From Protoeuglena noctilucae (Eukaryota), in NCBI GenBank assembly GCA_958009085.1, contig OY253679.1:248001-312000 (forward strand): a stretch of DNA of 64,000 nt, read 5' to 3'. Below the pieces are notes generated by a model. That model was given only the letters and a program-made list of their open reading frames with translations. It did no database searches and was not told where the DNA came from. Positions 5,751 through 44,710 of this stretch are shown piece by piece. How positions within the stretch are numbered: position 1 is the first letter of the stretch; every line of letters begins with the position of its first letter. The position numbers and the translations under genes were made by a program.

Positions 5751-6046
5751 GGAGAGCCGTGGCAATGACCGCCACGCTCGCAGCTGTACACGCGCAACAC
5801 TCGAGACCGATGCGTGTTGAGCACGTGCTCCCGGGGATATGGACTGCTTGCGCAAGCGATTGCGCGCGACGTCATGGCATCGTCGAGGAAGAACGGCCCC
5901 GCTGGCATTGGACGCCAGTATCTGGGGAGAACGGGCTGGCCGAGAACTCTCACCCCGTCCGGACGTCGCCTGAAGAAACAGGCCAATCACCCGTGATCCC
6001 CTCTGTAGGAACTTTGTCCGAAGGAGGTCTGTGTCGCGTTTGCGTC

Positions 6047-21500: not shown

Positions 21501-23888
21501 TGCTGCAGAGGCGGGGGCGGAGGGGGCGGGGGCGGCGGGGATCGAGCGGCCGTCTGTGAGGTGAGGAGATGAGGGGTGGTGGTGGTGGTGGTAGTAGTAA
21601 GACTTATCGACCCGTCCATCGCTCCCCAGCTCCACTATACTTATTTATGATTAGTAATTAAGAGATTTTTAACTACTCTCCTCACTCTCCTTGCCCCTCC
21701 CCACCACCCCCCCAGCTTTGCGTCCCTCTCCCACGCCGGCCCCAGCGGCCAGGACATCGCGCGTGCAGTGACAGCACTGGGCCCGGAGGGGGTGTCGATG
21801 TTAGACGTGCTGGAGGTGCTGAGGCAGCGGGCGGGGAGGGACGAGCAGGCCGCGGAGGTGGGTAGTTGATTAATTGAGCGAGTGGTGGGGAGTGGTGGAG
21901 TGAGTGAGTGGTTGGTTGGTTGGTTGAGTGAGTGAGTGAGTGAGGCAGTGAGTGGGGTGCGTGGGGGTGGGAGGGAGTGCGCATGCGTGGGAAGCGAGTG
22001 CGCAGGTGCGGGTAGTAGTGAGGGTGCATGGATAGACTAGCAAGTAAAGATGGCGCCACGCATCGCCAGGTGCCGCCAGGTGCCGCAATACTAATTATAG
22101 TCATTATAGTCATAAATTATACATATATAATCATATTAGTGTCATATATAGTCATATCCCCCATCTCTCCCCACCACCCTCCCCCAGGTCGTCTCATCAG
22201 GTCGTCAGGTCGTCTCATATACTACTAGATATACTATCATAATTATGAACCTCATTCTCACTCTCTCCACCACCCCCCAGGTCGTTTCGGCCGAGGGCGA
22301 CGCCGCCCGCCGCGACCTCCTCTCCTCGCTGTTCGGATTCGACCCCGGGGCCACCTCCCTCGTCGCGTCGCACCCGTGCGCATTGGACGACGTGCCGGGG
22401 ACGCTCTTCGTCACCACCAGATTCCTCGCATTCGCGCCCCACGAGAACCTCAGGCACTCGTGGGACCCACGGGGGGCGGGTGAGTAAGCATGCGAGTAAA
22501 GTTTTTAGATATTATTGTTTTTGAACGTGATGGAGGGTGATGAAGTAAGGGAGATGATGATTAAATTGTTTCCAAGTAAATTGCTATATATCATCTCTGA
22601 CCACCCCTCCGTTTCCATCACTTGATATCGTGCTATGGACCCCTATCCTCTCCAATCCAAACCGTCATCGCAGTCGACGGCGCTGCGGCTGCCCCCGACC
22701 GCCGCGTGGTGGTCCCCGTGGCGAAGATCGCAGCCATGGATGCGGAGACGATGGGGCACGAGGAGGCGGTGGTCATGGTGAGCAGACCATAGCTATTGAT
22801 GTATGTTGAGTATATGATGTGATTAATTGTTACTAACTGAGAGTGGTTGTGGACGCGGAGACGATGGGGCACGAGGAAGCCGTGGTCATGGTGACGGAAA
22901 GAGACGCGTGCTGTGTTATCAATTGGTCCCTACCATTGTCCTGCAATCATCAAAACCCCAACAATCCAATGATCATAAGCTTTCATTTATTATAAATCCC
23001 TTCTCTCCTTGCCCCTTTCAGATCGGCCCCGACCACGAGCGCCACGTCTTCTCGCGTTTCGCGGCACGCCAGAGGGACGTGCTGCTGTCCACGCTGTGGA
23101 CGGCCGTTTCTGGCACCGGCACCGCGCTCGAGGCCTATCTCGCCAAGCAGATGCGCGGGGCGGCCGAGGGCGTGGGCGGGGTGCTGCCGGCGGGGGAGGC
23201 CGTGCTCCGGAGCTACAAGTGCGCCAAGGCGAGTAGCTAGTAACGGAGGCGTCGATGGCTGGAGTGGTCAAATGGTCCATGGATGGATCCATGGGTGACG
23301 TTACCACTGTTTCTGTGTAAGTAATCATGATCGTTATTATTGTTGCTGTAATTACTGATTATTAATTTGTTGTTATCATTAGTATTCGTTTTATCAATAT
23401 GCTCTTATCCGAACCCCCTCTCTTGTTCTCAGATCACGAAGGACCGCCTCCGCCTGAAGCACGGCACGCTCTACGTGTGTTTCAAGCACCTGGTCTTCGA
23501 CTCCACCGAGTGCACCCGCAAGACCATCCCATACGTGGACGTACTCAAGGTTAGGCGGATGGTTGGAGTGTGATAATGTATGATAGTAATATGGTGATAA
23601 CATAGTTGTAATTGTGACGGCATCGATGGAGTATCGGGGCGATCATCATAGCACAGCGAGGGAAGGGTGTTATCATATCAAATCGACCGTCTATTCGATT
23701 GCTTGCTTATTGTCCCACAATCCTCGCAGGTCACGTGCGAGCACAGCGACTTACACGGACCGGTCGTGACGTTCAAAGTGCCCGTCTACGACAAGAAGCG
23801 GCTCAAGCTGGCCGGGTTCGAGTCCCGCCAGGACGCAGTGGATCTCGTCAGCGTCATCTCGGGACTCTGCGACGTCCACCGGCGGTAA
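12538..23888 (+). CDS. Munc13/UNC-13-like tethering protein: C2 domain, MUN (MHD1+MHD2) domain, two C-terminal GRAM-like domains
   Basis: C2-like RVCLVGARDLP; MHD1-like WVGNNIAADSFEP..RHSMSVIDLFQLL; MHD2-like LKAYLDSEMECMY..EILEHFHGDSLGLP..LFDLHYSSTKVL; GRAM-like LVASHPCALDDVPGTLFVTTRFLAF and EAVLRSYKCAK..HGTLYVCFKHLVFDS. More than 20 exons; start codon uncertain, stop TAA at 23888. Confidence 0.7.
20158..20273. repeat. Perfect 57-bp AT-rich tandem duplication in an intron
   Basis: GAGATGGTTATTGATATAATTGGTACAGTTATTGATTAAAATATAATCATTGCCAAC at 20158 and 20215. Confidence 0.95.
20920..21063. repeat. Intronic imperfect inverted repeat (hairpin, ~62-bp arms, ~18-nt loop)
   Basis: 20920-20982 aligns to the reverse complement of 21001-21063 with roughly 11 mismatches and one indel (hand alignment). 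Confidence 0.9.
21899..21945. repeat. Compound tetranucleotide microsatellite (TGAG)n(TGGT)n(TGAG)n, intronic
   Basis: Directly visible in the sequence. Confidence 0.85.
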
Positions 23889-24776
23889 AGGAAAGGGGGC
23901 TGCATGGGGCGGTCTGCGAGAGCAGCACTGCGCCGCTCTGGAGTGCGGAAAATCTGATAGAGCTAGCTAGCGCTGGAATGAAAACGCAAAGCAATGGAAT
24001 AGATGTATGTATTGAAACGCAGAAACAGAAAAAAGAGGTTCCGCGTTGGCGGGCATCGGCGCGAGGGGAGCGTGAGCCTTTCCCCCTCGGGCGTCATTCA
24101 TGGGCGGGACCGGGAACAATTGTGGTCATCTGATGATCGCGACGTATCTATCGCGAGCGGAGGTAGAAGAACAGGGCCAGCGCTGCCGCGGCTGCGAGGG
24201 GAGAAGGACGGGGGGGACGGTTGAAACCTTTTGCGGCGTTTTGCGAGAGCTGGCGAGCGCAGCGACGGGCGCGCAGGCCCCGCGCTCACCTCCTGTTGCT
24301 CCGAGGACGACGACGGGCAGCGCGTATTGGCAATATCACAAGAACTCGGCCCACACGCACTGCAGCGAGCACTCGGCGTCTTCCTCCCTCGCCCCGGGCA
24401 TCTGCGGCGGCCTGGGGGGGATCCTTTCACAGGACGCTGGCACTGTCGCAAGAGTATTGCATTGGAACGCAAGCGGACGCACCCGGCAGGCAGGGCCGCT
24501 AGCGAGGCTGGGCGCGCGCCCCACGAGCCCCAGCTCCTCGTCGTCGGATTCGCGCATCGCTCCCAACACGTGGCTCGGCTTATGGCTGTTCAAAGACGCC
24601 GGTGTTATTGCCGCGCGGGTGAATACGAGCCCCCAGAGGCCACGGTCTGGCAGCGGGGCCAGTCGCAGGAAACGCATCCGTGCAAGCCAACGCCGTCATG
24701 GCGCGCCACGTCGCCGACAGCATAAACTTCTTTCAGCCAGTCGCCGCATTTCCGCGAGTCCTCGTACGCGCGCCGC

Positions 24777-26354
24777 ATGTCGTCGGCGCTCTGCGCCACG
24801 TTCGTGGCGCCCGCGCCCTTCGCGGCGCCGGCCTGCCGTCGCAGCGCGCATGCAGCAGCGAGCACCTCCTCTGCACCCGTCTCTGCCGTTCGCGGCGCCC
24901 GACGGCCCTCCGGCGGTCGTCGGCCGGTCGCAACGAGGGCCATCGCAGCGCCGGGGCTCACCAGCGCTGAGGTGGCGCAGTTCGAGCGCGACGGGTACCT
25001 GGTCATCCCCGGCTTCGCGAGTCCCGAGGACCTGGCCGCGCTGCGGTCCCGGATGGACGAGCTCGTCGCGGGCTTCGATCCCCAGCGAGGTGCCTGCGTG
25101 CTCGAGTCACTGAGCCCCCGGAACGGCGCGCTGTTTCCGCTCTTCCAACCACTTTGGTGAATCTCCGTGCAGTGCGGTCGATCTTCTCGACGCGCGACCA
25201 GCGGAGCAAGACGGACGACTATTTCCTTCGTTCGGGCAACGCCATCTCGTTTTTCTTCGAGGAGGAGGCGTTTGGGCCGGACGGGTCCCTGCAACAGGAC
25301 AAGGCGCTGAGCATCAACAAGGTCGGCCACGCGCTGCACGACCTGGACCCCGTCTTCCGGCGCTTCTCCCGATCCCCACGCATGGCCGCAGTCATGCGCA
25401 GCCTCGGGTTCCGCCGCCCGGTCCCGGCGCAGTCCATGTACATTTTCAAACAGCCGGGAATCGGCGGAGAAGTCGTGCCGCACCAGGACAGGCGAGAGAT
25501 GCAGACAAGAGGCTTCGCTCTCACATCTTATGCAAACGCTTTGCTCATACCCATGCATACCTGTGCTTTGCTGAAGCGCATGCAACCCTTTTCTCCCGCA
25601 GCACGTTCCTGTACACGGAGCCGGAGCCCACCTGCGTGGGCCTGTGGCTGGCGCTGGAGGATAACACGAGGGACAGCGGGTGCATGTGGGCCGAGCCCGG
25701 CAGCCACCGGCAGGGCGTCCACCAGGGCCTCTACAAGCGCTTCGTGCTGCGGGTGAGGACCATGCTATCATGCTACTTCCTATCATGTTCTTTGACTAGT
25801 CTCTCGTGTCGTTTCACGGTTAGCTGCGCTGCTGCGATGTGACGGTAGCCCAGCCGATGCCACATGCTATGCTGTTATGCTACAGTAACACAGACCAGGG
25901 TTGCATGAATCATATCCCGCACCTCCCCGTCCCACGCCTCCCCACCACCCACCCTTGTTACCACAGGACGGCCAGGTGACGTTCGTCAGTGCGGACCCCA
26001 GCACCCCATCGGACCAGGTCCCTGCCATCCCTTTTGAGGAGTCTGCGTTCGTCCCCCTGGAGTGCCCGGCCGGGACCCTCGTGGTGCTCCACGGCGCTGT
26101 GCTGCACTACAGCAAGAAAAACACGTCCCCACGGTCACGCCACGCGTATGCCATGGTGAGGGCCCGATGGGAGGGAGGCGCTGGCGAAGTGGGGCACATG
26201 GCAATGCGCAGCGAGCCAAGAAGCGGCGCATTGGGGCTCACGTGCCAGGGCCCTTTCTCCGCAGCACTTCGTGGAGGGCGCCGAGGGGTTCACGTGGTCC
26301 AAGGACAACTGGCTGCAGAGGGACCAGGGGTTCCCGTTCGAATCCCTCTACTGA
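24777..26354 (+). CDS. PHYHD1: Phytanoyl-CoA dioxygenase domain protein (PhyH family Fe/2OG oxygenase)
   Basis: [57 protein letters not shown] (HxD; GC donor 25492), [37 protein letters not shown]. Ala/Arg/Ser-rich transit-peptide-like N-terminus; five exons. Confidence 0.92.
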
Positions 26355-26678
26355 CGCACGGCATGGGTGGCTCACTTTGCTTCTCCAAGCTACGGGCTCG
26401 CCCTCTGCACCTCGTTGGGCCAGGGCAGGGGCAGCGCTAAGCTAAGTATGCTCTCTCTTCACGGGCTAGTTGCGCTCTGACCTACCAGATACACTCACCC
26501 CGGGCGCTAGTCAGCCTCAGCGTTCCTTGAACTCACACTTGCGTAAAGACGCTGATCGATTCAAGCTCTGGACTCTCCAGAGAGACGCAATTCGCTTGCT
26601 ACTCGGCGAACCCCGAGTTTCGCTGTCTGAGGCACACATCAGCAGTGCAGTAGTTACGCTCCAACTCCTCGCTCCGAT

Positions 26679-29063
26679 TCAAACCCCTCCCTGGGCAGCT
26701 GCAGCCGTGCCCCCATCGCCGTCCCCACGCGATCGCAGCGGCTCCACCAGCAACGCCTCGCTGCCTGCCACAAACCCCGCCTCCTCGAGACTCGGGCCCC
26801 CGCTCCCATACACCCAAGCGCGTGTCGAGACACCACCCTCTTTCCCAAAACCCCCCGCACCCACACCCGCACCCGCACCCGCACCCGCACCCGCACCACC
26901 ACCCGCACCCACGCTTGTGACGTCCAGATTGGCCACCACCCTCCGCGGAAACTGCCTCGCGAGGTTATACGTGCCCGGCCGCCCCATGTGCGCGTCCGCA
27001 AACACGAAGAGGTGGCGGAGGGGCTCGTGGAGCGCGAAGCGGCGCGTGCGGACGGCGCCGTCGGGGAAGCGGAGGCTGCGGGGACGAGGTGTGAGGTGTG
27101 AGGTGAGGGCACGTTGATGACACACTATCATCAAATGAAGCTGCTAATCGAAAGTGCTGGGAGAGTGCTGTGAGACACGGTTGAGAGCCAACGTTCGTCG
27201 TCCAAGCTGCCCAAGGAGTACCCCATGCACAGCAAAGCACACCAACACTTGTCACATGCAGCACTCACCGGCACGTCAGCACCCCCGCCTCCGCCTCCGC
27301 CCCGCTCGGCTCCGGTGGCAGCAACGACCGCGCCTCCTCCATGCACTGCCGCCGCGCCTCCTCTTCCCTGTAAAAAACGGAGATAGTCAAACAACGATCC
27401 TCGATATCTCTTCCAAGGATATCCAAATCCATTGTGCCTTGCTCAGCGCACCCAAGCACTCGCACTCGCCCATCCACACCCCCCTTCATACAACGTCTGC
27501 ATTGTACCAAACGTGCATTCCGAGTCACCTTTCGCCCCTCTTCCTCTCCTCCTCCTCTTCTCGCCTCCTCTCTTCCTCTTCCGCGATGGCCTGGAGCCTC
27601 ACGCGCTCCAACTCCGCACGAATGGCAGCCTCCTCCTCCTCCCTGCGCCTGCGAGAAAAAGCAGGATAAGGTTTAATCTTGTTGTTAAGATGTTCTTGTT
27701 CATCAGTCACACCCAATCCACGGTGATGCTCAGAGAAGGCACATGGTCGTAGCACAGCTACAGCACGCAGTGCTTGGATGTGACAACAACAACAGTCGTG
27801 GCAGTAACGCTGATTACCATGACCAACACCAAACAACACATGGCCACCAATAAGCAGCCTGCGTCTCACCGCTCCGCCTCTTCGTGCTCCAGCGAGGGCA
27901 GGATGTCGACCGCCACGTCCGTGTCGGTGATGGATGCCCCGCCGTTGGGCTCCACCCTCACCACGCGCACCTCGTGGTCGACCACTTCGCCAGACGGGGT
28001 CGCCACGGGCACCGACAGGCGCTGGCCGTCACTGAGGGCACGCACACAGATGCATAGGGTGAGCAACTAGGGTGAGCGAGGGGGCGGGCAACGGGACGAG
28101 CATGCTACGCTACGTCTCTAATGTTTCACTCTCAAACTCTATACTCTCCTCTCCTCCTCCCCTCACCCGAGCGTGGCGTGGGCCACCAGGGCCCCCTCTA
28201 GCGTCGCCCGGACGTCCTGGCAGTCCCTGGCGAAGCCGGCGGACACGGGCTGCAGCTGCGCGAACGTCGCCTTCTCCAGGCGCAGGTACCGCACCGTGAC
28301 GCGGCCGCTGCGTGGAAAAGAGCAACGACAGAGAAACATGTGTGAACAGGAGAGCCAGCCACACGGAGCTCAGCTGTGGCGCGGCATCGCAGATGCATCG
28401 CGGCATCGCGCACGCATCGCACCTGTCGATTCCCGAGCGGTCCGCGTCTCCCCAGAGGCTGCGTTGCACGGCGGAGGGCAGCTCGACCGTGCCGGGCGCA
28501 GCCATGAACTCCAGCAGCCCCGCCAGCGCGCGCAGCGACGTCCCGGGCACCGCGACCTCGAAGAACATCGGACCGTTCCTCTCCGGCGCGCTCTGGCCCA
28601 TCAAGTCGTCCCCGGCGGACGCGGGCAAGCGGATCTTGTCGCGGAAACGGCGAATGCCCCGCGCGGCCACGGCGGCCTCGTCCAGCGCCACCGGAACGAG
28701 CCTGTCCTCCCAGTACACGCCCCGGTTGTGCTCCTGGATGGCGTCTCGACGCGCCTCCTCCTCCTCGCGCCTCTCGCGCTCCCGCTGCAGTCGCTCCTCG
28801 CGCTCGGCCTCCTCCTGCCGCCTCCGCTCCTCCGCGAGCGCGTGCACGCGCTGGGCCCTCTGCAAACGATGTCAGGCGCGCGATGGGGGCTCGCGGAGGG
28901 TCAGGTAAAGGCCGGGATCTGGCGCCGGGAGGCGCAACAAAGGCGCGCGAGCAGAAGGCGCGACGCGCCGCCTCACCTCCTCCTTCTCCCTGGCGCGACG
29001 CTGTTGCTCGCGCTGCTCGCGCTCGAGCTTGCTCTGCCGAGCGCGGAGCTCGGCTCCCAGCAT
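26679..29063 (-). CDS. UFD1-like domain protein with coiled coils and C-terminal UBX domain (p97/CDC48 cofactor-like)
   Basis: UFD1-like DKIRLPAS..GPMFFEV..GLLEFMAAPGTVELP..LEKATFAQLQP..ASITDTDVAVDI; UBX-like LPPEP..LRFPDG..RRF..LFVF..QFPRRV..SLEEAGF. Confidence 0.8.
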
Positions 29064-29926
29064 GCGGGCGCACCCGCGCGCGGCGGCGTCACACGAGGCT
29101 CCAGCGGCCAGGCGCCGAGTAGTATAGCGGACGCGGCGGGCAGCTAATTGGCAATCTCTGACCAGCCATCGATCTGCGAAGCAAAGCGACAAACAGCTTC
29201 CGAAGCTGGAGCTGTGTTCCCGCGTCAGGCGCATGCAAGATTGGCAGTGTTTGACCGGCTAACGACGGGCTGGGGCAGCGACTTGCCTCACTTCGCGTGG
29301 TAGCATCAAATAGCGTCGCGCATTGCGCTGCATTTCGTCAATCGATTGGTCCCGGAGTCGAGCTCGGGCCGGGAAAGCATTGCCGAGCTCGAGAGGCGGA
29401 CATCGGTCTCGGGGAAGCCTTGCCGAGCGTTAGAAGCGACAAACACACAGGGAGGCTGGAGGTGAGACGCCGTGGGGTGTGGGATTGGCTACCCGGGCGT
29501 GGCAGCGAGTCAGCAAGGGTTTCCGAGGCGAGGACGACCGATCGCCCTTGTCTGCACTCTCTCTGAGGCAGTTTGTAGATAGATCGATGGCTGGGTGGCA
29601 GAATCGGCCCTGGAGGGCGGCCCTGAGCGTGGTGCGGGAGTGGGCAGGGAAAATTATGCTCTGCGGCTTTTCTGCCGCAATTGCTTGCCGTCTGGGGCCA
29701 GCACGTGTGGCGGGTGCCTGGTTGTTGTATTTCATGAGCTGGATGACCCGGGGGAGCTCGCAATGCGAGCGTCCGCGGCGTGCAGGGTGACAAGGCAGAG
29801 CACGGTATCGCTGGGGCCGCAGTGGGCCCCTAGGGTGGACGTGCGACAGCGCGGACTCTCTCGCTCACAGGACTCGTTTGTACGCTCTCATCGGCGCAGC
29901 CTGTGCTCCTGTCGGGGGACCAGGAC

Positions 29927-32900
29927 ATGAGCTCGAGCATGAAAGAGGTCAAGGAGGCGCTGCGGGAGGTGGAGGCGTCGGGGCCCGGCGCCGGCGGACG
30001 CAAGGGAGGTGGCGGAGGCACGACAATGGTCCGGAAGAAGCAGGACTGGCCGGCCAGGGTGGAGAAGGCGAAGTTCGACGCCTGGCTGCAGAACATGCAC
30101 AAGTGGCCAGCCCCGGAGGGCGCCCTGGGGAACCAGAGGAACGTGGACATCTTCTGGGACATGGACAACGTGAGGGGAAGCGCGCATTGCTGCGCTCGCT
30201 GCCCTGGGTGTCGGGTGGGAAGCGGCGCCAGCGCTGACACTCGTGATGGACCAACGGTCCTCCCCCGGTGCAGGTGCCGCTCTACCCAGTCAACAACGTC
30301 CCCGGCCTGTACCCACACGACCAGTACGACATACTGCTGCGTCGTATGGGCTATGACTTGGGAGCCGCGAGCGTGCGGATGTACGTGGCCATCGCACAGG
30401 ACCGCCTGGACTCCTATTTGCCGGCGGTGAAGCGACGGATTACGGCCGTCCACCCGAATGTCACCATCCAACCCGTTCAGGGTCGAACTCGCGGCGGGAA
30501 GCGAGAAAGTGAGTGCTCTTGCCCAGTTGAGCCACAGACCTGTTACAAAGGTTGTTGCGCCCGGTACATCAGCGATGCAACCTACGAGTGCTCTGCTCCC
30601 TTGCAGTCTCCGACAACGTCCTGAAGTCGTCAATAAAGAGCTTTGTGGATCGGGGACAGCGAGGCAACGCCATCGTGATCGTCAGTGGCGACGGGGACTT
30701 TGTTCCGGAGGTCCGATGTGCCCTCCACAAAGGTGAGGTATCAGATGACGACAGGGGCACAGAGTTGGGTTGCTCAGCTGAGCGGCCATCCTTGACCTAC
30801 ACCTTAGCTTGGATTTGCTGCAGGTGTGAATGTCTACCTGCTAACCCCAAGCCGAGTTGTCACCAGCGATGAGCTGTTCAAGTCAGTTCACTGGCAGCAG
30901 GTGAGAGCCCGTGCTGTGCGTGCTGTCGTATATTCAGCATAAGCAGGATGGAATTGGAAGCCACATGGCGCGCATGGACGATGTGACGCAGTATTTCAAC
31001 CGCTTCATTGAGCTGCACACTGGCCGGGTCAAGCCGGAGCAGAAGCGGGAGACGCCCAAGAAAAAGACGAATAAGAAGAAGAAGACCCCTGCTGAAAAAC
31101 TGGCTGAGGCAGCTCGCAAGGGGAAGAAGCTGGAGATGGACGAATACAAGGCGCACATCATTGAGGAGCGGGAGCACACGCAGGTGCGTGCTGGTCAACA
31201 CCACCGATGTTGGGATTGGAACCGTCGGGTTTGGATCGAAGAGGCCAACCCAGGCACTGAATGAGCATGACCATGCCGCCCCCCGCAGCTGGACATCCTC
31301 ATTATGATCGACGGCACAAAAAGCATGGAACTGTACATTGAGAGGTGATCAAACAGTGCCAGCCGATGCAGGTCCCTTGTTGCTGCTGAAGCTGGCACTG
31401 TTCTCGTCAAGGGTGGCCAACGCGTACATACGTATACACAACTGACTCCGTGCACCATCCTCGCAGCATCAAGGAGGCCATTGGTTCCGACCTCACCGTC
31501 GAGATACAGACCAGGTACCGGACCGCTGCCGGCAACGTCCGCTACGGCGTGCTGGTGTACCGGGACATCGGCGATGAGAAGCAGTACGAGATGCTGGACT
31601 TCACGCCTGATCCCGGGGCTGTCGTTGACTTCCTCGCCACTGTGATAGCGAAGGGCGGCAGCGATTACACGGAGGATGTGATTGGAGCGATGCTGAAGGC
31701 TGCTGAAATGGGCTGGGCGCAGAAAAACAAGGTGGGAGTTGGGTGCGCGGTGTGGCCTGGCGATTTCTCACAGGCTGTCGATGGCTAATCCTGAGGCTCT
31801 GGGCTGACCGAGCAGTGATGCGCTCGCCCAATTGTAAGTGTTGTAAGCACCCTCTCTGGCGCAGGCTGTGTTCCACGTGCTGGAAGCCCCCGCCCACGGA
31901 CACATGATGCACGACCTGGGTGAGGCAAATGACAACTTCTTCCACCGCCCACCTGAGGGCCGAGACCTGCCAGACGTGGAGGCGCGCCGGGCCATGGCCA
32001 AGCTGCAGGAGCTCGGGGTGCAGCGGTACGTGTTCTGTCACCTGGAGAAGCAGCACTGCACCAAGATGACGGAGCTGCTGCGGGAGATTCTTCGTGAGGA
32101 CGGCAAGGACAAGACTGCAGAGGAGAGCAGCTGGCTCGTGGACACCGAGGTCACGCGTGACCCAGGCGAGGGCCCCAGCGCGAGCGGCCAGGCCAGGCTA
32201 GCTGCAGCTGCTGTGTCGGCGGTCGTCATGATGGGCCTGGCAAGGGTGGCGCGTGTGCATGGATGGCACCCTGGGCTGGGCAGACCCTGGCCACGCAAGA
32301 GTGCGGTTCGACCCTTGGGGGTGTAAATGCAACCGTGGCCTCTGCCTTCCATCTGCAGCGCCTCCACCTGGCCTAGAGCCAGTACCGTCCAAGACGCGCC
32401 TTGCGAGTCTGGTGGGCAAGCTGATCGGCCAGACCATGGGCACCATCTCTGCCAGCATGTCCCGCGCGACGCTCACGCGGAAGCAGCCGGAACGATCTGT
32501 TGGCCAGAAAACCTACGATATTGACGACGAGCTTTCCACCGTTCCGGAGGATGTGGGCGAGGCGGGTGGTGCGGCGTCCGAGGCATCGACAGAGCCAGAG
32601 CAAGAGCCAGTGAAACTCATGTTGGACGAATGGTGCATGGAAGGCGCGGAGAGGAGGGCTTGGGAGGCGACCCTGGGCAAGTACCGCGACGTTTTCAAGA
32701 AGATGAGGCGGAAGAAGGGCCCCACGCAGGTCAAGATTATCCTGCCGCCCAACTACCACGGCGACATGGATAGGCTGTTGGAGGACATTGACGACCAGGG
32801 GCTGAGCCAGGGGACGGACCCCAGCGACTCGTTCAGGGAGTACTTGATCCGAGAGGCCCCTCCGCAAGGCTTCGAGGGAGAAAACAAGGTGGCCTTCCTG

Positions 32901-34013
32901 GCCCAGGAGCAGATCAAGGGTTACCGCACCGTGACGCGGAAGGCTGCAGATGGGAGCACCGTGGAACACGCCGAGAAGTCCGACTTCCCAATCGTCGTGC
33001 TGAAGGAGTACAAGGTGCGGGCGGAGGGCGGGTGGCATGCATACGGCAGCAGCAGCCGTTGCCCAAGCGTGGTGTGACGGCACAGCCGTGCACCCCCTTG
33101 CTTTGAGTGCAGACGTTCGGGAGGGGCGAGCACAGCTTCGACAGGTACAACAAGGAGCTACAGGCATGCGGCGTCGCTGCTCTCCTGGCCCAGCTCTTCA
33201 ACGAGCGGGTGAAAGAGGTAAGGGCGCTTTTGCACGTGCTCTGCGCAGCTCAGCTGGGGTGAAAAGGCGAGAGGTGCAATATCTGGCCCATGAGGCACCT
33301 GCCTCATGCCCGGCCGCAGGTCAAGGATCGGCTGACGGTCGCGCCCAAGACGCTGAGCTACCTGGAGACGGGGCTGGTGTCGTACCAGGGCTTCCCCGCA
33401 GGGAAGACCAAGCAGGGGCCCAGCAAGCAGCCCGTGCAGATCTACCGCCTACAGGAGCCGCTGGTGCTGGGCAAGTTCATCAAGTGGTCGTCCAACGCTG
33501 GTGAGGCCCTGGCCGCAGTGCGTGCGCTCCATCAGCAGAGTGCCACGATTCGTGACGCTAGTGAAGGCTGCGTCAGGCACGGGTTTGGTGCATGCTGTGG
33601 CTGCAGCCCATGCATCGTGCCGCGATGAGAGTTTGCCCCCAACCCCGCACCTAACAGGATACGTGAACATGGAGGAATGGGACGAGATCGCGCACGCCTT
33701 CACCCACTGGACCTACCAGGCCACCGAGGGCCGGCTGATGGTCACGGACGTGCAGGGCGTGCGCGTCGGCAAGGCGGCCATCAAGCTGACGGATCCACAG
33801 ATCCACTGCGTGCACCCGGAGCTCTTCACGCACGAGACGAGCAGCTTCGGGAGGGTGGGCATGCTCAAGTTCTTCCAGAACCACCAGTGCGGGGACACAT
33901 GCAAGGCCCTTGGCCTCAGCGACGCTCTGGAGGAGTTGGAGAGGCTGCGCGGGGAGCTGGACGGGCTGCAGGAGGAGGACGTGGTTGAGGTGACGGAGCA
34001 GCAGGGAGTTTAG
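29927..34013 (+). CDS. NYN (PIN-like) RNase domain - vWA domain - alpha-kinase fusion protein
   Basis: NYN motifs VDIFWDMDNV, GKREISDNVLK and AIVIVSGDGDFVPEV..GVNVYLL; vWA motifs LDILIMIDGTKSM, YRDIGD and GGSDYTEDV; alpha-kinase motifs VVLKEYK, QEPL..GKFIKWSSNAG, HAFTHWTY..LMVTDVQGV..LTDPQIH and FFQNHQCGDTC. About 12 exons join in one frame; an upstream exon is possible. Confidence 0.82.
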
Positions 34014-34299
34014 GCCGAGGTGGCGAGGCCCTAGGAGGTGCAGGGGAGGTGGAGTGGAGGTGGCGAGGCCGTGGGAGGCGTGCCGGAGGAGGCAAGGGAC
34101 AAGAGGGTGGCCAGCTGACCCACTTTGCATAGAGCGTGGAGGGTGATGCAGCAGGGAAGGAGAGCCTTTGCGAGGATGAAGCTGTAGCGACGTGCCGGCC
34201 ATGAACGTAGGTAATCGGTTCCGGGTCTGCTAGCGGTGTATCGGGTGGCGCTGATCTTTCAACCGCGAGACCCACGCGAGCATGCATGTCCGGGTGTCA

Positions 34300-34480
34300 A
34301 CAGCCACACTGTGACTGTGCTCGGGGCACTGGCGACTCCCAGCGCCACCAGTCCCACCACCGCGCCCAGCCAAGCCGCCAGCTGGAGGTACCACGGAGCC
34401 CCGGCCCACCTGCAGCCGCGCTATGCAGCAGCTAGGCTGTCGCCCTCCCCGATGTCCCTCAACCGGACAGACTCTTTGGG
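34300..34480 (-). pseudogene. Decayed partial duplicate of the cyclase membrane-domain exon
   Basis: Translates RLRDIGEGDSLAAA*RGCRWAGAPW-YLQLAAWLGAVVGLVALGVA versus RPRDLRDVDSMAAALRGRTWAGALW..YVVAWLGAVVGLVTLAVA at ~37700-37930. In-frame TAG at 34421-34423 and an internal deletion. Confidence 0.7.
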
Positions 34481-35308: not shown

Positions 35309-38300
35309 TCAGGCGCCCTCCGAGGCGTTGCCGTCGACGGAGCGCCGGAGAGCGGTGGACGAGGCGGTGGGCGTCAGAGTCGGGACGGAGGTGGCGGCCG
35401 TGGCGACGGCGCCCGAGGTGTAGGCCGACACAAGGCGAGCCAGGGACTTGTCGAGGCCGTAGGCAACGAACGTCTCCATGAGACCCTTGCCTGCGGATGG
35501 AACCCATCGGGATGTGTTGATTTCACCCGTAGCATGACCTGCTGTCACCTGTATGACATGTAACACTCTATTGGCACTAACATGTGTCAGAAGCATACAC
35601 CCATCGCCACCAGTCACTAGCCTTTCACGTCGATCGTCTCCCTCTCGAGTGTCTCGTGGATCTCCGGGGGCAGCGCCGCTGCCGTCTGTGCCGTCATGCG
35701 AATGTGGTTGGAGCGCGAGTTGCTCTCCATCCGCGCCGCCACGTTCTGCAGAGGCGGGGGTGAGGGTGACGGTGAGGATGCGGGTGGTGCAACTGGGGTT
35801 TCGTGAGTGTCTCCATACCCACTCAACCCATCTCCGCCACTCAGGTGCTTGTCCCCACACAGCGTCGGCAGCCATCCCTGCCCACTCACCAGCGTGTCGC
35901 CGCAGAGCGTCAGGAGCGTGCGCTTGACGCCGATGACACCCCCCGCGACCGGCCCTGTGTGGATGCCCACTCGGATCTCGATGGGCCCTGAACCGTCCGC
36001 CTTGTCGACCTGGCATGCGCTGGCGACCATGGCCATCGCGATGCGCAGGGCCAGCAGCTCGTGCGCTGGCTGGGGCTGGTGGAGGTTTACGGCCACCACG
36101 TACGCGTCGCCTACCGTCTCGTACTGCGGGGTCGACTCAGTTCCACATGGTTGGATTGCATGGAGCACAGATGTAAACCGCACGGTCGTTGCCTTGGTTG
36201 CGGTGGCATGCAAACGGCTGCTCGCCTTGTAGGCTCCTAGTGCCTCGACCATGGCGTCCAGTTTGGAGAAGTAGGTGTGGAGCATCGACAGCACGTTCAG
36301 GGGCGCGCTGCGGCTCGACATGTCCGTGTACGACACGACGTCGCTGCGAGGTAACGAAAGCGTCATCGTCATGGGCATTACTGACAACAAGTCGCATGCG
36401 CCCTCCCCTCTCCCACCCACTTGCCTGAACACCATGGTGACCTCCTCGTACTCCCGGAAGTACACCAGCGACTGCCCGGGCGGCCCCAGGTGGCCCTGCC
36501 GCCGCGCACGCGCCGCCGCCGCCCGCGCTGCGTGGCCCCCCACAGACGTCCCCTCCGACCGAGCCAGGGGACTGCTCGCGCGAACGTGATCCTCCGCAGT
36601 CGCGCGGCGGAGGCCCTTGACCCGCCCGATCGACGTGCCCTCCTCTGCCGTCTCTGGGGCACCGCTGACGATGCCGCGGGTAGTGACCCTGTCCGTGGGA
36701 GTGCCAGCACTGCCGGCCCCACCGGAGCCGTCCAGCGACCGCCGGCCGGACCGAGACTTGCCGGCGAGGCTGCTGTGGACGGAGGCGAGGAAGCCCCCGA
36801 GGGATGCGCGGGCGCGTGTGTCGGTGCGCGCTTCGGTGTTGCCGGGGGCAATGCGGCGGTGCTGGGAGGGGCCCCTGGAGGGGAACGGTCGATGCCGGGG
36901 CTCGTGAATGGGCGAGGACGCGACGGGCTGGATGGACACGGGGGCGACGTGGGTGGAGGGGGACTCGAGGCCGCCGGCGTTGAGGTTGGCCTTCCGCCAC
37001 TCCATGCGCATGGCGGCAAACACAGTGCTGCTGGCCTGGACCGCATTGCCTGTGCAAAGGGAGTGGGGTCGGTGGGAGTCACATCAGCATGCAACGCAGC
37101 ATGTCGAGTTGCGGTGACAAGCGCCCGGCAGCGCTGGTGCCCCGCCCGCTCACTTCGCATGCTGGTGCCCTCGGGTGACATCACGGATCGAATCTTGCCA
37201 AAGGTGGGGCTGGCAAGGCCAATGTGGGACGGGTCCTGCGGGGAGGGCGAGATGCACTCAGGTGACCTTCAGTCAGGACGTCGACGGACGCAAGCAGTTC
37301 CATGGCATGGATTGGAATCACAGGGCGGGAAGTGGAATTTTTCTGCTGCCTGGAGTACTCGTGCATGCCTCCTGCCCTCACCGCGACTACTGGCCCCGGC
37401 GCGGGAGCCACCCTCTTGGCATCTGTGACGGGCCGGGCGTTGCGAATCAGCGCGTCGGCCACGTCGCGCGGCACGATGTTCTGGATCACAGAGTCACGGA
37501 ACTTGATCGAATCTGCGGGACAGGAGAAGGGCGGGGCCGTTCTCTCTTTGGTTTGGGTGGGCAGCGAGCTCGTTTGGCATGTCACGCCACCCGAGCCCCA
37601 TGTGCATGCAGCGCCTCACCGGCAGCCGCCTTTCGCTGTGCGGCCCAGAGTAGCGCGAGCAGCAGTGCCCAGGCGGCACGCACGCGGATCTCGGTGCCAG
37701 ACACGAGCGCGACCGCCAGCGTCACCAGCCCCACCACCGCGCCTAGCCAAGCCACCACGTACGTGACCAGCCCCCTCGCCGTGCACACCCGCACGGCAGC
37801 GTCGCGTACGTCGCAGATCCAGAGCCCAGCGCCTACCATCGCGTCCCACAGGGCCCCGGCCCACGTGCGGCCGCGGAGCGCGGCAGCCATGCTGTCGACA
37901 TCCCGGAGGTCCCTCGGCCGCGCGACGCTGGGGTCCAAGACGGGCAGGGCTTTCCGGGACGGTCCCGAAGAGCGACTGGGGTCCCCTGCGCCCAGCACGG
38001 CGTCGCCTACACCCAAGACACGCGCCCCGGTCAGCGACACGACAGCGCAGAGTGCGGCGGAGGATGCGAGGGCGGCCCAGGGGACTGGAAAGTGCGTAGC
38101 GAGCCTGGCGGAGTTCCAGATGGTGGGGTCGGCGCCGAGGGAGAGGAGGGAGGCGGCCCCAGTGGCAGCGGCGATGATGCGGAGGGCGGGGGACTGTGCG
38201 GTGGTGAGGGCGGTCAGGATGCCAATGCCCAGGGCCAAGCTGCGTAGAGGGTGAAGGAAGGGGTGGTAATTGGATGTTTTGACGACGAAAGGGGTGGCCA

Positions 38301-39791: not shown

Positions 39792-41468
39792 GCGGCCCAC
39801 GGGGTTGGGGACGTCCCGCGCAGAGAGGAGCGTGCCGGGGGGGCGTCCCGCGATGGCCGGCGTGGGCCATGCGGGGCTGCGAGCAGCGGGGCGGTGCAAG
39901 AGGTGTTCCTCGATGCGAGAACACCGCGAGCGGCCGGGCTGAGGATGACGAGGCACGACGCCTCCGTGGAATGTTCTTTCCCGAGCCGTACCTGACAAGC
40001 GGGTCTGAGCTATCAGCGCGGCGCTAGCACAGCACGTGGCGAGTCGCACCTGGGCGAAGCGGCGCCAGGGAGCGTGCGGATGGTCACGAGGGTTCCAGCA
40101 TCGGCAGGGGCTGCTTTGACCTGCAGGGTCGACGGAAGCATACGTTCTCTGTGTTCTCTGCTTAGGGCCAGCGCATGCGTGAGGCAGGGAGCAAAAGCGC
40201 ACCTCGTCATTGGCAGCATCATTAACGTCCTCGGAGCTGCGCGCCGCCTCGCGGCTGAGGTTGCCTCGGCCGCTGTGGGCGAGGATGCAGGGCGTGGCAG
40301 TGATGTGTGCGGGTGCAGCGTGGAACGCGCGAAGGGCGCGAGATGCGCAGGTGCACGCGCATCGCACGTGACGAGAACAAGTCTTTTGAGGTGTCACGCG
40401 CACAATCGGTCATAGATATCGGTCGCGCGAGCGGGCTGCGGCCGCGCCTCGTCAGGCGTCTGCGGCTGGCGGGACAGGCGGCGAGGGGGCCTGGGGGACG
40501 CAGCACACCTTCCGGATCTTGAGAGGGACAAAGTGCCCTCCATAGATGGTCCAGGGAGGCATGAAAGCTCCATCCCGCCCGGGAAGCTCGACGACATCGA
40601 ACTGGAGCGTGCCCCTGCTTCGGCGCAAGCGCTGAGGGGCCAAATGTGCTACTTGCACCCCAAAAAGCCACCAGGTAACGCGCGAGGCCAGCCTTTTTGG
40701 TGGGGGCCAACCCCCCACGTGACCCACGTGGTGTGACAACTGGCGCCGTCAAGGCGCCCGAGCAAACGTATGTTACATGTGTTGCAGCCCCGCCGATGTG
40801 TTCGCACTCAGCGAGCTGGCAGCGTCGGTTGGTTCTTGCCAGAAAACGTCAACGACGCTGCGGTTCCCCGGTTGCTTCCTGCGAGATATATCGAACTATG
40901 CTAGCCGCTGGACAGCCGCAATGTCGAGCACCAAGCCAAGATGGGGAGTGGGCTCGTGTGCAGCACATGCCACCTTTTCCAGGGCGCGTGCCTCGCGCGC
41001 GCCGCGATATGCCGCCGCTGGACATCAGAGAGACGCCCGCGTTGAAGAGCTAAGAAAGCGCATGCGACATCTCCGCAGCGAAGACTGCAGCGAGCCGAGA
41101 GAGCAACGCTTGCGCTTTGCATTGCGCTGCACTACGCGTCCTCTCCAAGGCATCCCGTAGCGCATTGCAGGCCCTCTTGCATTCTCCAAACTCTCTTCAG
41201 TACACTGGCATTAAAGCACTGCCGCAAGCGGGGCTGCAGGGGCGAGAGGCCGTGGGTGGGTGGCCTTCGCTGCTGCGACGGCGCAGCCGCCCATCAGGGC
41301 CCTGAATGGGCCGCGCACGGCCTATGATTCGTTCTTGAAAGTTCCACAAGACGACGGCGCCCCTATGCGGGCCCGTTCGTCCCCGGCCGCGGCTGAGACC
41401 CGCGTTGCTGTCCTGGCCTGACACAATCAGACCCCCGCAGCCTCTCCCATCGCGCCGCAGAATAACCC

Positions 41469-44149: not shown

Positions 44150-44710
44150 CGAGGCGTTGGCGCAAGGAGGGAAGGGCCGGCGCACATCCTGCCGTTTTCC
44201 CGATCACACTGGCCAGCGATCGGGTGGGGTCTTCCCCGCCAGCCCGAGCACGTAGGGCCCACCGCAGCCTGCGCCGCCGCACTCCGCGTTTTCTTGCGTC
44301 GAGGCTTTTTCCTCGGGGCGCCCCCTCCCAGGCTGAGACCTCCCGAGCCGGTGAGCGATGCATGGCACCAAAGGCGACGGGCGCTTTTCGGGACAGGCCC
44401 TGTATTCCATAGAACAGTCATTTTTGATAGAATTACGGACCGTTGGCTAGAGCGGCTCGAGGACCCCTCGCAACGGCGCCCCGGACCCTTGATGAATCTT
44501 TACTCGCCCCCGCCACCGACGCCGCCCCCTCGGGGTCATCGCGTCGCAGTCGAGTGAAAGAGAGCGAATGTGTTCGAAGGGCAATCCTAGCGTGGCGGCC
44601 CGTGAACGCTGGCGCGCGGGGTACAGTACCGATGAAACCCACCGTGTGCTGACCACCTGCGCCCGACTCCGCCCGACGCTCCTCGTCCCCAGGGTCGCTG
44701 CAGCTCGGAG

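What the first reader, a model, noticed from the sequence alone, without database searches (positions are those of the whole stretch)
29927..34013. RNase-vWA-alpha-kinase fusion: candidate kinase-gated ribonuclease (defence or stress effector)
Seen: one spliced frame links a NYN/PIN-like domain with its acidic residues (FWDMDN, ISD, SGDGDF), a Lys-rich linker, a vWA domain with MIDAS-like DGTKS, and an alpha-kinase with catalytic K, DVQG, LTDP and the H/C zinc site. Established: vWA + alpha-kinase is the Dictyostelium VwkA architecture, NYN domains (MARF1/LabA type) are metal-dependent RNases, and kinase-RNase fusions such as IRE1 and RNase L use different folds. Inference: a convergent sensor-kinase-nuclease, possibly antiviral. 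I do not know a characterised protein with this order.
Basis: partly seen in the sequence, partly recalled or inferred. Interest (0 to 1): 0.75.

Follow-up and report, generated by a model that had tools for sequence, protein, structure and literature searches.

The report
Green-algal RNase–vWA–alpha-kinase fusion gene
This is a real, expressed gene of a marine, GC-rich alga that joins an RNA-cutting domain to a docking domain and an unusual protein kinase; the combination is conserved in green algae but has never been studied, so its role is still an inference.

Summary
Window 29927-34013 (+) is one gene with 12 coding exons. It encodes 930 aa: an NYN nuclease domain, a basic linker, a vWA domain with a MIDAS motif, a conserved Ser/Thr-rich segment and a C-terminal alpha-kinase. 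Marine metatranscriptome contigs show 8 of the 11 coding introns spliced, including the linker-to-vWA junction. Relatives encode all three domains in one uninterrupted frame. The NYN Asp set, the MIDAS motif, and the kinase Lys, DxQG, TDP and zinc ligands are kept across the family.

The NYN-bearing proteins form one clade (support 100) inside Viridiplantae VwkA-type kinases. Named members come from Pedinophyceae, Dunaliella, Gonium and Pleodorina, and the last two add C-terminal CCCH RNA-binding fingers.

Most likely reading: a MARF1/DNE1-like endoribonuclease tethered to a VwkA-type docking and kinase module, acting in cellular RNA turnover. The coupling between the parts is inferred.

The antiviral reading has no support. 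The clade's branching is consistent with vertical descent, no viral homologue was found, and PADLOC gave only a generic NYN hit.

No paper in the library holds both alpha-kinase and NYN. Structure prediction could not be run. Verdict: an undescribed variant of a known kinase class, of moderate interest.

The parts
29434..29461 (+). 3' end of an upstream non-coding (5'UTR) exon; its start was not determined
   Evidence: The 26-nt loose end of an X1 RNA contig at 29869 matches 29434-29459 exactly, and this is the only match in the window. GT follows at 29462 and AG precedes 29869.
29869..30169 (+). Exon 1 (CDS from ATG 29927): poorly conserved Gly-rich N-terminus, the WPAPEGAL motif and the first NYN motif FWDMDN
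   Evidence: RNA joint 30169>30274 in X1.
30274..30508 (+). Exon 2: NYN core
   Evidence: GT-AG sites. P0001 is continuous across both junctions. Intron 2 (30509-30606) has no listed RNA joint.
30607..30732 (+). Exon 3: NYN motifs ISD and SGDGDF
   Evidence: Pfam NYN E 0.0062, 17.5 bits on this piece alone, below the 24.2 cut-off. RNA joint 30732>30824.
30824..30900 (+). Exon 4: end of the NYN domain
30992..31183 (+). Exon 5: last NYN helix (YFNRFIELH) and the Lys-rich basic linker. An alternative in-frame acceptor lies at 30938.
   Evidence: The acceptor was chosen by agreement with P0001. RNA joint 31183>31289 in X1.
31289..31344 (+). Exon 6: start of the vWA domain with the MIDAS motif D-G-T-K-S
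   Evidence: One X1 contig splices intron 5 but keeps intron 6 (31345-31466), which would give a stop straight after this exon.
31467..31731 (+). Exon 7: vWA core with GGSDYTED
   Evidence: RNA joint 31731>31865 in X1 and X2.
31865..32165 (+). Exon 8: end of the vWA domain (VLEAPAHG...), ending at a GC donor
   Evidence: RNA joint 32162>32356 with 3 ambiguous bases, equal to 32165>32359, GC..AG, in X1 and X2.
32359..33014 (+). Exon 9: conserved Ser/Thr-rich segment (residues 505-545, 32376-32498), acidic spacer, and the alpha-kinase N-lobe with Lys714
   Evidence: RNA joint 33014>33113 in X1, X2 and X3.
33113..33217 (+). Exon 10: alpha-kinase
   Evidence: RNA joints on both sides in 3 of 3 RNA runs.
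33320..33500 (+). Exon 11: alpha-kinase
   Evidence: RNA joints on both sides in 3 of 3 RNA runs.
33658..34013 (+). Exon 12: alpha-kinase C-lobe (His829, DVQG, LTDP, HxCxxxC), acidic C-terminal tail, and stop TAG at 34011-34013
   Evidence: Pfam Alpha_kinase 2.8e-23, 83.4 bits. RNA contigs run on past 34100.
30119..31018 (+). NYN (PIN-like) nuclease domain, residues 65-236, interrupted by introns 1-4
   Evidence: Family NYN profile against the spliced protein: E 1.8e-62. The same profile hits the MARF1 NYN structures 5yaa at 1.8e-5 and 6fdl at 5e-5. At E <= 0.1, 5 of 5 family NYN segments hit PF01936.
31289..32110 (+). vWA domain, about residues 292-480, interrupted by introns 6-7
   Evidence: P0001: VWA_4 at 27.9 bits against a cut-off of 27, VWA_2 at 7.8e-5. 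MIDAS D/T/S are at least 90% conserved in 147 vWA-alpha-kinase proteins. The wider family profile hits integrin beta I-like domains at 2e-5. The window's own exon pieces give no Pfam vWA hit.
32940..33902 (+). Alpha-kinase catalytic domain, about residues 693-894, interrupted by introns 9-11
   Evidence: PDB sequence hits to 4kuj, eEF2K, ALPK1, MHCK A and TRPM7 kinase.

Best explanation
One gene encodes a 930-aa cytoplasmic-type multidomain enzyme. It is a VwkA-class alpha-kinase (a vWA docking domain followed by a C-terminal alpha-kinase) that acquired, once in an early chlorophyte, an N-terminal NYN endoribonuclease of the MARF1/DNE1/LabA kind.

Proposed working:
- The NYN domain cuts single-stranded RNA, using a divalent metal held by its four aspartates (Asp78, Asp162, Asp188, Asp190).
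- The vWA domain uses its MIDAS site to dock on an acidic residue of a protein partner, probably part of an RNP or of the mRNA-decay machinery.
- The alpha-kinase phosphorylates that partner or the protein's own conserved Ser/Thr-rich segment (residues 505-545), and so sets where and when the nuclease acts.

The role is in cellular RNA turnover or post-transcriptional control rather than dedicated antiviral defence.

Shown: gene structure, expression, single reading frame, domain identities, conserved catalytic residues, single origin, and the added CCCH fingers in Volvocales.

Inferred: RNase activity, kinase activity, partner docking, any coupling between the activities, and the cellular process.
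For: Single gene:
- RNA joints cover 8 of 11 coding introns, including exon 5 (linker) to exon 6 (vWA).
- The homologue in loci L002 and L003 covers residues 48-920 and 70-920 of the window protein in one frame.
- P0001 (881 aa) is 62% identical to the window protein (532 of 865 aligned residues). It scores Alpha_kinase 4.4e-37, NYN 4.8e-11 and VWA_4 2e-6.

NYN domain:
- The family profile hits the MARF1 NYN crystal structures at 1.8e-5 and 5e-5.
- The MARF1 catalytic pocket is Asp358, Asp426, Asp427 and Asp452 (PMC6294520, passages read).
- Four Asp residues chelating Mg/Mn define the NYN domain (PMC10226599, passages read).
- The family keeps the equivalents of 358, 426 and 452 plus the second Asp of GDxDF in every member that covers them. 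The one exception is Gly at the last position in Gonium.

vWA and kinase sites:
- MIDAS D/T/S, GGxDxxED and the His-Gly of APxHG are invariant in 9 of 9 aligned sequences. Lys714, His829, Asp843, Gln845, Asp858, His888, Cys890 and Cys894 are kept in the 8 of 9 whose kinase part is readable; the ninth, P0005, is a gene call broken before the kinase.

RNA theme:
- Gonium P0192 and Pleodorina P0193 have the same NYN (hhalign E 7e-17 and 8.7e-19) plus C-terminal CCCH fingers.
- CCCH fingers also occur in at least 3 of 65 and 2 of 70 other vWA-alpha-kinase proteins.

Single origin and vertical descent:
- All 8 NYN-clade rows among 139 form one side of a branch with support 100. Inside the clade the Chlorophyceae separate from the other members.
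- The nearest outside rows are NYN-less VwkA-like proteins of Volvocales, Dunaliella and liverworts.
Against: - No activity was measured and no partner is known.
- No structure could be predicted, so the PIN-like fold and any contact between domains are untested.
- The window protein has Glu405 where most vWA-alpha-kinases have Asp. The family shows D, E or N there, so MIDAS metal binding may be altered.
- RNA contig depth is about ten times lower over the NYN half than over the kinase half. One contig retains intron 6, which would truncate the protein after the linker. A shorter vWA-kinase transcript or an NYN-only product is therefore not excluded. Contig depth is a poor measure.
- All RNA evidence comes from one study.
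- Pfam NYN passes its own cut-off only in P0001, P0003 and P0004. P0005 (20.8 bits) and Dunaliella P0009 (13.6 bits) fall below 24.2.
Confidence: 0.55

Rival explanations
1. Kinase-gated antiviral or stress ribonuclease. A signal sensed through the vWA domain or the kinase switches on the NYN nuclease, which degrades viral or bulk RNA. This would be a functional analogue of RNase L or IRE1, or of ligand-activated ALPK1.
For: - A nuclease, a ligand-docking domain and a kinase are on one chain, with all active sites intact.
- NYN nucleases do occur in prokaryotic defence systems. PADLOC's LabA-like NYN model hits P0001 at 1.3e-5.
- The host is a marine alga (metatranscriptome runs), and marine algae are generally exposed to viruses (my own knowledge).
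- The precedents for ALPK1, IRE1 and RNase L are recalled, not from a call.
Against: - The clade's internal branching separates the Chlorophyceae from the other members, which fits old vertical inheritance.
- There is no paralogue in the 64-kb window.
- 0 of 8 pattern matches in viral contigs encode a relative.
- P0004 has no PADLOC hit.
- Neighbours are ordinary genes: PhyH, UFD1/UBX, a cyclase and Nramp.
- There are no induction data.
Confidence: 0.12
2. The kinase is the only effector. The NYN domain serves mainly to bind RNA or an RNP and bring a VwkA-type kinase to its protein substrates, for example decay or translation factors, with little or no cleavage.
For: - In other lineages the same kinase chassis carries purely binding modules at its ends: CCCH fingers, SAM, FYVE and RING.
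- Gonium has lost the last Asp of GDxDF.
- An alpha-kinase acting on the translation machinery has a precedent in eEF2K (PMC2827801).
Against: The metal-binding Asp set is conserved from Dunaliella to the window species. This is not expected for a pure binding module. MARF1 also lacks the last Asp of GDxDF and is still active (alignment; PMC6294520).
Confidence: 0.18
3. The activities are independent and merely tethered. Nuclease and kinase act on different targets, and the fusion only ensures co-expression or co-localisation, without regulation of one by the other.
For: Nothing in the data shows coupling. The linker regions are long and less conserved (43% and 52% identity to P0001, against 60-71% in the domains).
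Against: The order and the conserved Ser/Thr-rich segment between the vWA and kinase domains are kept throughout the clade. No separate NYN-only or split version was found, but the searches were limited: one search returned 3 hits, the two longer of which (170 and 289 aa) look like fragmentary gene calls.
Confidence: 0.12
4. The fusion is a gene-model artefact and there are really two adjacent genes (NYN, and vWA-alpha-kinase).
For: - One low-depth contig retains intron 6, which would stop translation after the linker.
- Depth is lower over the 5' half.
- Introns 2, 4 and 6 lack RNA joints.
Against: - An RNA contig joins exon 5 to exon 6.
- Relatives carry all three domains in one uninterrupted frame.
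- Annotated proteins of Pedinophyceae and Dunaliella have the same order.
Confidence: 0.03

Closest known systems
Dictyostelium VwkA (vWFa-kinase) and the VwkA-like vWA + alpha-kinase proteins of protists, fungi and plants
   Same: A vWA domain followed by an alpha-kinase at the extreme C-terminus (PMC2827801 passages). The MIDAS DxTxS, GGxDxxED, DAPxHG and kinase motifs are shared by at least 90% of 147 aligned proteins. In the tree the window protein sits inside green-lineage VwkA-like proteins, one of which is named 'Alpha-protein kinase vwkA' by its source.
   Different: It carries an N-terminal NYN nuclease domain that the sister proteins lack (hhalign probabilities 0.07% and 0.67%). It also has a clade-specific Ser/Thr-rich segment. 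Direct orthology to Dictyostelium VwkA was not tested. VwkA's own substrate is unknown (PMC2827801).
MARF1 (animals) and DNE1 (Arabidopsis) NYN endoribonucleases
   Same: These are the closest solved relatives of the N-terminal domain (5yaa 1.8e-5, 6fdl 5e-5). The FWDxxN, xD and xxD active-site motifs are shared. Both are proven ssRNA endonucleases acting in mRNA decay (PMC6294520; PMC10226599).
   Different: No LOTUS/OST-HTH or RRM domains appear in any Pfam scan. The family has GDxDF, as in bacterial LabA-type NYN proteins, where MARF1 has TDVNF. It lacks the second Asp of MARF1's DD pair in most members. It is fused to a kinase module.
Regnase-1/ZC3H12A-type PIN-like RNase + CCCH finger proteins
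   Same: The Volvocales members combine a PIN-like nuclease with CCCH fingers on one chain. Control of Regnase-1 by phosphorylation is a precedent for a kinase setting RNase activity (recalled, not from a call).
   Different: The nuclease belongs to a different Pfam family and the order of the parts differs. Here the kinase is built into the chain. The window protein itself has no CCCH finger.
IRE1 and RNase L (kinase or pseudokinase + KEN ribonuclease)
   Same: A kinase-type domain and a ribonuclease on one polypeptide.
   Different: These have a eukaryotic protein-kinase fold and a KEN domain at the C-terminus, and they are activated by dimerisation (recalled). [quoted passage not shown] The resemblance is an analogy only.
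Naegleria alpha-kinases with RNA-type modules
   Same: An alpha-kinase combined with RRM-like modules and a possible PIN-like tail.
   Different: They come from another lineage, the nuclease-like part is C-terminal, and the notes themselves say the PIN call is unproven. Not checked here.

Membership tests
NYN domain (Pfam PF01936, PIN-like clan) | Match to the family HMM above its gathering score | tested here: inconclusive
   The window's spliced protein could not be handed to Pfam. Its exon 3 alone gives 17.5 bits against a cut-off of 24.2. Homologue P0001 (60% identical in this domain) gives 43.8 bits, P0003 31.9 and P0004 29.8. The window protein matches the family's NYN profile over residues 65-236 at E 1.8e-62.
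NYN domain (Pfam PF01936, PIN-like clan) | Four conserved acidic residues that hold the catalytic metal | tested here: met
   Asp78, Asp162, Asp188 and Asp190 are present and aligned with the MARF1 pocket residues and LabA-type GDGDF. The definition comes from PMC10226599 and PMC6294520.
NYN domain (Pfam PF01936, PIN-like clan) | PIN-like alpha/beta/alpha fold | not tested
   Structure prediction accepted no jobs.
NYN domain (Pfam PF01936, PIN-like clan) | Metal-dependent ribonuclease activity | not testable with these tools
   Needs a biochemical assay.
Alpha-kinase (Pfam PF02816) | HMM match above the gathering score | tested here: met
   The window's last exon alone gives 83.4 bits against 21.3. 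P0001 gives 128.4 bits over profile positions 7-185 of 185.
Alpha-kinase (Pfam PF02816) | Catalytic Lys, DxQG, TDP and the His/His/Cys/Cys zinc site | tested here: met
   Lys714, Asp843-x-Gln845-Gly846, Asp858, His829, His888, Cys890 and Cys894 are present. The same columns are at least 90% conserved in the wider family. Mapping to TRPM7 or MHCK residue numbers is recalled.
vWA domain with MIDAS | HMM match to a vWA family | tested here: inconclusive
   The window's exon pieces give no vWA hit at E <= 0.1. P0001 gives VWA_4 at 27.9 bits against a cut-off of 27, and VWA_2 at 23.7 bits, below its 27. Among related proteins, 51 of 65 and 58 of 70 hit VWA_4 at E <= 1e-4. The family profile hits integrin beta I-like domains at 2e-5.
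vWA domain with MIDAS | MIDAS motif DxSxS ... T ... D | tested here: inconclusive
   DxTxS (Asp299, Thr301, Ser303) and GGxDxxED are invariant. The last acidic position is Glu405 in the window, where most proteins have Asp. Metal binding was not tested.
VwkA-class alpha-kinases | A vWA domain N-terminal to an alpha-kinase that ends the protein, and phylogenetic placement among such proteins | tested here: met
   Domain order. Tree of 139 rows.
MARF1/DNE1 family | NYN domain combined with LOTUS/OST-HTH RNA-binding domains | tested here: not met
   No LOTUS/OST-HTH hit in P0001, P0003, P0004, P0005, P0009, P0192 or P0193. Only the nuclease domain is related.
IRE1/RNase L kinase-RNase class | Protein-kinase fold plus C-terminal KEN ribonuclease domain | tested here: not met
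   No Pkinase or KEN (Ribonuc_2-5A) hit in the Pfam scans.
Prokaryote-type defence systems (PADLOC) | Match to a model of a known defence protein beyond a generic domain | tested here: not met
   P0001 gives only the generic LabA-like NYN model at 1.3e-5, over 64 residues. P0004 gives none.

The most novel reading that the evidence does not exclude
The fusion is a 'Rosetta stone' for the whole VwkA class. On this reading, vWA-alpha-kinases, whose substrates are unknown even in Dictyostelium, are regulators of mRNA fate. Both loss and excess of VwkA raise myosin II protein in Dictyostelium by an unknown mechanism (PMC2827801). In chlorophytes the module has been wired directly to a nuclease, giving a ligand-docking, phosphorylation-switched endoribonuclease. 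That would be a third, independent invention of a kinase-RNase signalling enzyme beside IRE1 and RNase L, possibly used in stress or virus responses.
Probability: 0.13. Interest if true: 0.75.

Novelty: new variant of a known kind. Interest (0 to 1): 0.45.

Why it matters
Alpha-kinases are a small, atypical kinase class with few known substrates, and the VwkA subgroup has none. A conserved natural fusion to an NYN endoribonuclease gives a concrete, testable hint that this subgroup works on RNA or RNPs. The hint is reinforced by CCCH RNA-binding fingers in Volvocales members and in some other vWA-alpha-kinases.

It also adds an unstudied candidate to the short list of eukaryotic endonucleases that may start mRNA decay. 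The family occurs in green algae that have sequenced genomes (Dunaliella, Gonium, Pleodorina).

If the kinase really controls the nuclease, it would be a new way of building a signal-controlled RNase. If not, it is still an unrecorded domain architecture.

Tried and rejected
Gene model
- My first model used a GT donor at 32093 for intron 8 and the acceptor 30938 for intron 4. I replaced them after seeing the RNA joint and homologue P0001.
- The window's genome is not held, so copy number and paralogues could not be examined. No paralogue lies in the window.

Selection
- dN/dS between L002 and L003 was uninformative: 15 differences in all, 2 synonymous and 13 non-synonymous. The more distant pairs are too far apart to use.

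Searches that added little or nothing
- Viral contigs: 8 pattern matches, 0 relatives.
- Rfam: no match in the window at gathering score, and none at E <= 0.1 over 29300-34300.
- Intron-to-intron repeats (introner-type): none, only 3 short chance-like pairs.
- PADLOC: only a generic NYN hit.
- ESM Atlas, whole P0001: only vWA-alpha-kinase clusters, best score 0.89. NYN part alone: bacterial NYN clusters at 0.88. These are leads only.
- Word-index search with exon 9: 1 hit among 3413 candidates. With the NYN part, shorter proteins: 3 hits. With Gonium P0192: 2 hits, and no Chlamydomonas protein surfaced. This does not show that Chlamydomonas lacks the family.

Items judged to be noise
- The ZUO1-like hit on the linker (E 0.019, below cut-off).
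- The X2 contig skip 31913>32040. It has the same 6 nt on both edges, so I take it for a template-switch or assembly artefact.

Not run or not held
- Structure prediction and fold search were not run because the tool took no jobs.
- The VwkA primary paper (PMC1087232) is not held.

Full report
**What is in the sequence**

The window is GC-rich (0.53-0.73 in 2-kb steps) and intron-bearing. I built a model from GT-AG sites and then revised it with RNA and a homologue.

- The model has 12 coding exons and encodes 930 aa, with stop TAG at 34011-34013.
- The 11 coding introns are 91-193 nt long.
- An upstream non-coding exon ends at about 29461 and joins 29869.
- With that exon, the frame upstream of 29927 has a stop and no ATG.

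**Is it one gene?**

One search for sequencing runs found marine metatranscriptome runs of one study. They hold 0.64, 0.42, 0.33 and 0.31 of the sampled words of 29800-34100. The exon share of that stretch is about 0.65.

I laid three of these RNA runs and one DNA run. Contigs show joints at introns 1, 3, 5, 7, 8, 9, 10 and 11:
- introns 9-11 in 3 of 3 RNA runs;
- introns 7 and 8 in 2 of 3;
- introns 1, 3 and 5 in 1 of 3;
- none in the DNA run, which carries the whole stretch unspliced in one contig and may be the source of the window.

Intron 8 is GC-AG (32165>32359). The joint 31183>31289 links the linker exon to the first vWA exon.

Results against a single product:
- One low-depth X1 contig splices intron 5 but keeps intron 6, which would stop translation right after exon 6.
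- One X2 contig is unspliced over 31161-31646.
- Summed contig depth is about ten times lower over the 5' half. The tool warns that contig depth cannot rank parts of a gene.
- Introns 2, 4 and 6 have no listed joint.
- For intron 4 I preferred acceptor 30992 over 30938 because it reproduces the homologue's HWQQ|YFNRF.

Independent support comes from relatives:
- P0001 was the only hit of a word-index search with exon 9 (1 of 3413 candidates). It is an uninterrupted 881-aa protein on a 3175-nt contig and is 62% identical to the window protein (532 of 865 aligned residues). It is continuous across every junction of my model.
- In metagenome loci L002 and L003 the relative covers window residues 48-920 and 70-920 in one frame. 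In L001 it covers them in two frames with one break.

**Domain identities**

Pfam on the window's 11 stop-to-stop pieces gave hits in 3 of 11:
- Alpha_kinase, 2.8e-23;
- NYN, 0.0062, below its cut-off;
- a ZUO1-like hit on the linker, which I take for noise.

The vWA pieces gave nothing. The spliced protein could not be handed to Pfam, so I used homologues.

- P0001 gives Alpha_kinase 4.4e-37, NYN 4.8e-11 and VWA_4 2e-6 (27.9 bits against a cut-off of 27).
- A profile of five family NYN segments (A4, without the window) matches the window protein at residues 65-236 with E 1.8e-62.
- The same profile hits the MARF1 NYN crystal structures at 1.8e-5 and 5e-5, and a LabA-like protein at 0.43.
- All 5 segments hit PF01936 at E <= 0.1, the best at 2.2e-12. 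As whole proteins, P0005 and Dunaliella P0009 stay below Pfam's cut-off.
- The kinase is closest in sequence to PDB 4kuj, eEF2K, ALPK1, MHCK A and the TRPM7 kinase.
- The wider vWA-alpha-kinase profile reaches integrin beta I-like domains at 2e-5.

**Active sites**

MARF1's pocket is Asp358, Asp426, Asp427 and Asp452 (PMC6294520, passages). Four metal-binding Asp residues define NYN domains (PMC10226599, passages).

- The window has Asp78 (FWDMDN), Asp162 (ISD), and Asp188 and Asp190 (SGDGDF).
- These are kept in all family members that cover them, except Gly at the last position in Gonium.
- MIDAS Asp299, Thr301 and Ser303, GGxDxxED and the His-Gly of APxHG are invariant in 9 of 9 sequences.
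- Position 405 is Glu in the window and D, E or N in the family.
- The kinase Lys714, His829, Asp843, Gln845, Asp858, His888, Cys890 and Cys894 are kept wherever the kinase can be read. P0005 is a gene call broken before the kinase and could not be scored.
- Between the vWA and kinase domains lies a clade-specific Ser/Thr-rich segment (residues 505-545) that is conserved in most members.

**The family**

An exhaustive HMMER search with P0001 found 5436 proteins at E <= 1e-3 and 75 at E <= 1e-30. Most are vWA plus alpha-kinase proteins.
- Alpha_kinase: 58 of 65 and 70 of 70.
- VWA_4: 51 of 65 and 58 of 70.
- NYN: 4 of 65 and 0 of 70.
- Other accessory domains: CCCH fingers, SAM, FYVE and RING.

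Full-length NYN-bearing members:
- Unnamed marine sequences: P0001, P0003 and P0005.
- Pedinophyceae sp. YPF-701 and Dunaliella salina.
- Gonium pectorale and Pleodorina starrii, identified by profile comparison (hhalign E 7e-17 and 8.7e-19). Both also carry C-terminal CCCH fingers.

I built a FastTree tree of 139 rows on 555 shared columns. I left out proteins under 450 aa, P0028 (near-copy of P0192) and P0005 (broken gene call). The tree puts all 8 clade rows on one side of a branch with support 100. Seven of them show the NYN domain; P0002 starts only after it. Chlorophyceae (Dunaliella, Gonium, Pleodorina) separate from Pedinophyceae plus the marine sequences.

The nearest outside rows are VwkA-like proteins of Volvocales, Dunaliella and liverworts. 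The two closest lack the NYN domain (hhalign probabilities 0.07% and 0.67%).

**Context**

Neighbours are ordinary genes: PhyH, a UFD1/UBX gene head-to-head with this one, a cyclase and two Nramp genes. There are no Rfam matches, and no relative was found in viral contigs.

**Interpretation**

The safest statement is that this is a VwkA-class alpha-kinase that gained a MARF1/DNE1/LabA-type nuclease domain once in chlorophytes and has kept all three active sites since. I read it as an endoribonuclease working in cellular RNA turnover, positioned or switched by the vWA-kinase module.

- The added CCCH fingers in Volvocales, and CCCH fingers elsewhere in the kinase class, support an RNA connection.
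- Coupling of kinase to nuclease, the partner and the process are all inferred.
- The antiviral reading is possible but unsupported.
- The 'two genes' reading is essentially excluded.

**Literature**

No paper in the searched library holds 'alpha-kinase' with 'NYN', 'alpha kinase' with 'NYN domain', or 'alpha-kinase' with 'PIN domain' and 'ribonuclease'. The listings for alpha-kinase with 'green alga' or 'Chlamydomonas' show no functional study (listings only). I read passages of the alpha-kinase review, which describes VwkA's architecture and its unexplained effect on myosin II levels. Subscription journals are largely outside the library.

**Earlier notes of this scan**

Two earlier notes describe Naegleria alpha-kinases with RRM-like modules and an unproven PIN-like tail. 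I did not check them. They suggest the alpha-kinase-RNA theme may recur.

**Limits**

- There is no whole genome, no informative dN/dS, and RNA from one study only.
- The organism is not identified beyond 'marine, GC-rich, with a gene family otherwise seen in Chlorophyta'.

Noticed in passing
window 16000-24000: A stretch with GC 0.53-0.57, against about 0.65 on either side. It is rich in short tandem repeats, including an exact 57-nt AT-rich unit repeated twice at 20158-20273. No stop-to-stop ORF of at least 110 aa in it has a Pfam hit.
   Followed up: partly
window 41466-43740 and 44653-45905 (+): Two tandem Nramp-type metal transporter genes; Pfam Nramp hits fall in several exon pieces of each.
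   Followed up: no
window 26682-28871 (-): A gene with UFD1_N1 and UBX exon pieces lies head-to-head with the NYN-vWA-kinase gene, so the two may share a promoter region around 28900-29400.
   Followed up: no
window 35620-37083 (-): A large exon with an adenylate/guanylate cyclase catalytic domain (3.4e-26) lies downstream on the opposite strand.
   Followed up: no
window 24971-26437 (+): PhyH (phytanoyl-CoA dioxygenase-like) exon pieces lie in three frames, so this is a spliced gene.
   Followed up: no
window 31345-31466: Intron 6 is retained in one RNA contig that has intron 5 spliced out. Retention puts a stop codon two codons into the intron, giving an NYN-plus-linker product if translated. 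It may be unspliced precursor or a regulated isoform.
   Followed up: partly
window 32166-32358: Intron 8 uses a GC donor (GC-AG), while the other ten coding introns use GT.
   Followed up: yes
window 31913-32040: One X2 RNA contig skips 126 nt inside exon 8 with CT..AC ends and the same 6 nt (ACCTGG) at both edges. This is most likely a template-switch or assembly artefact.
   Followed up: yes
L001 (metagenome locus), about 3300-4000: The P0005-type relative has an extra N-terminal extension of about 225 aa before the NYN domain, with no Pfam match. Its gene call runs out of frame before the kinase because of one break near 5905-6111.
   Followed up: partly
Gonium pectorale P0192 and P0028 (GPECTOR_9g618, 9g619): Two neighbouring loci encode 94%-identical members of the family. 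The annotated N-termini start inside the first NYN motif, so the public gene models are probably truncated at the 5' end.
   Followed up: partly
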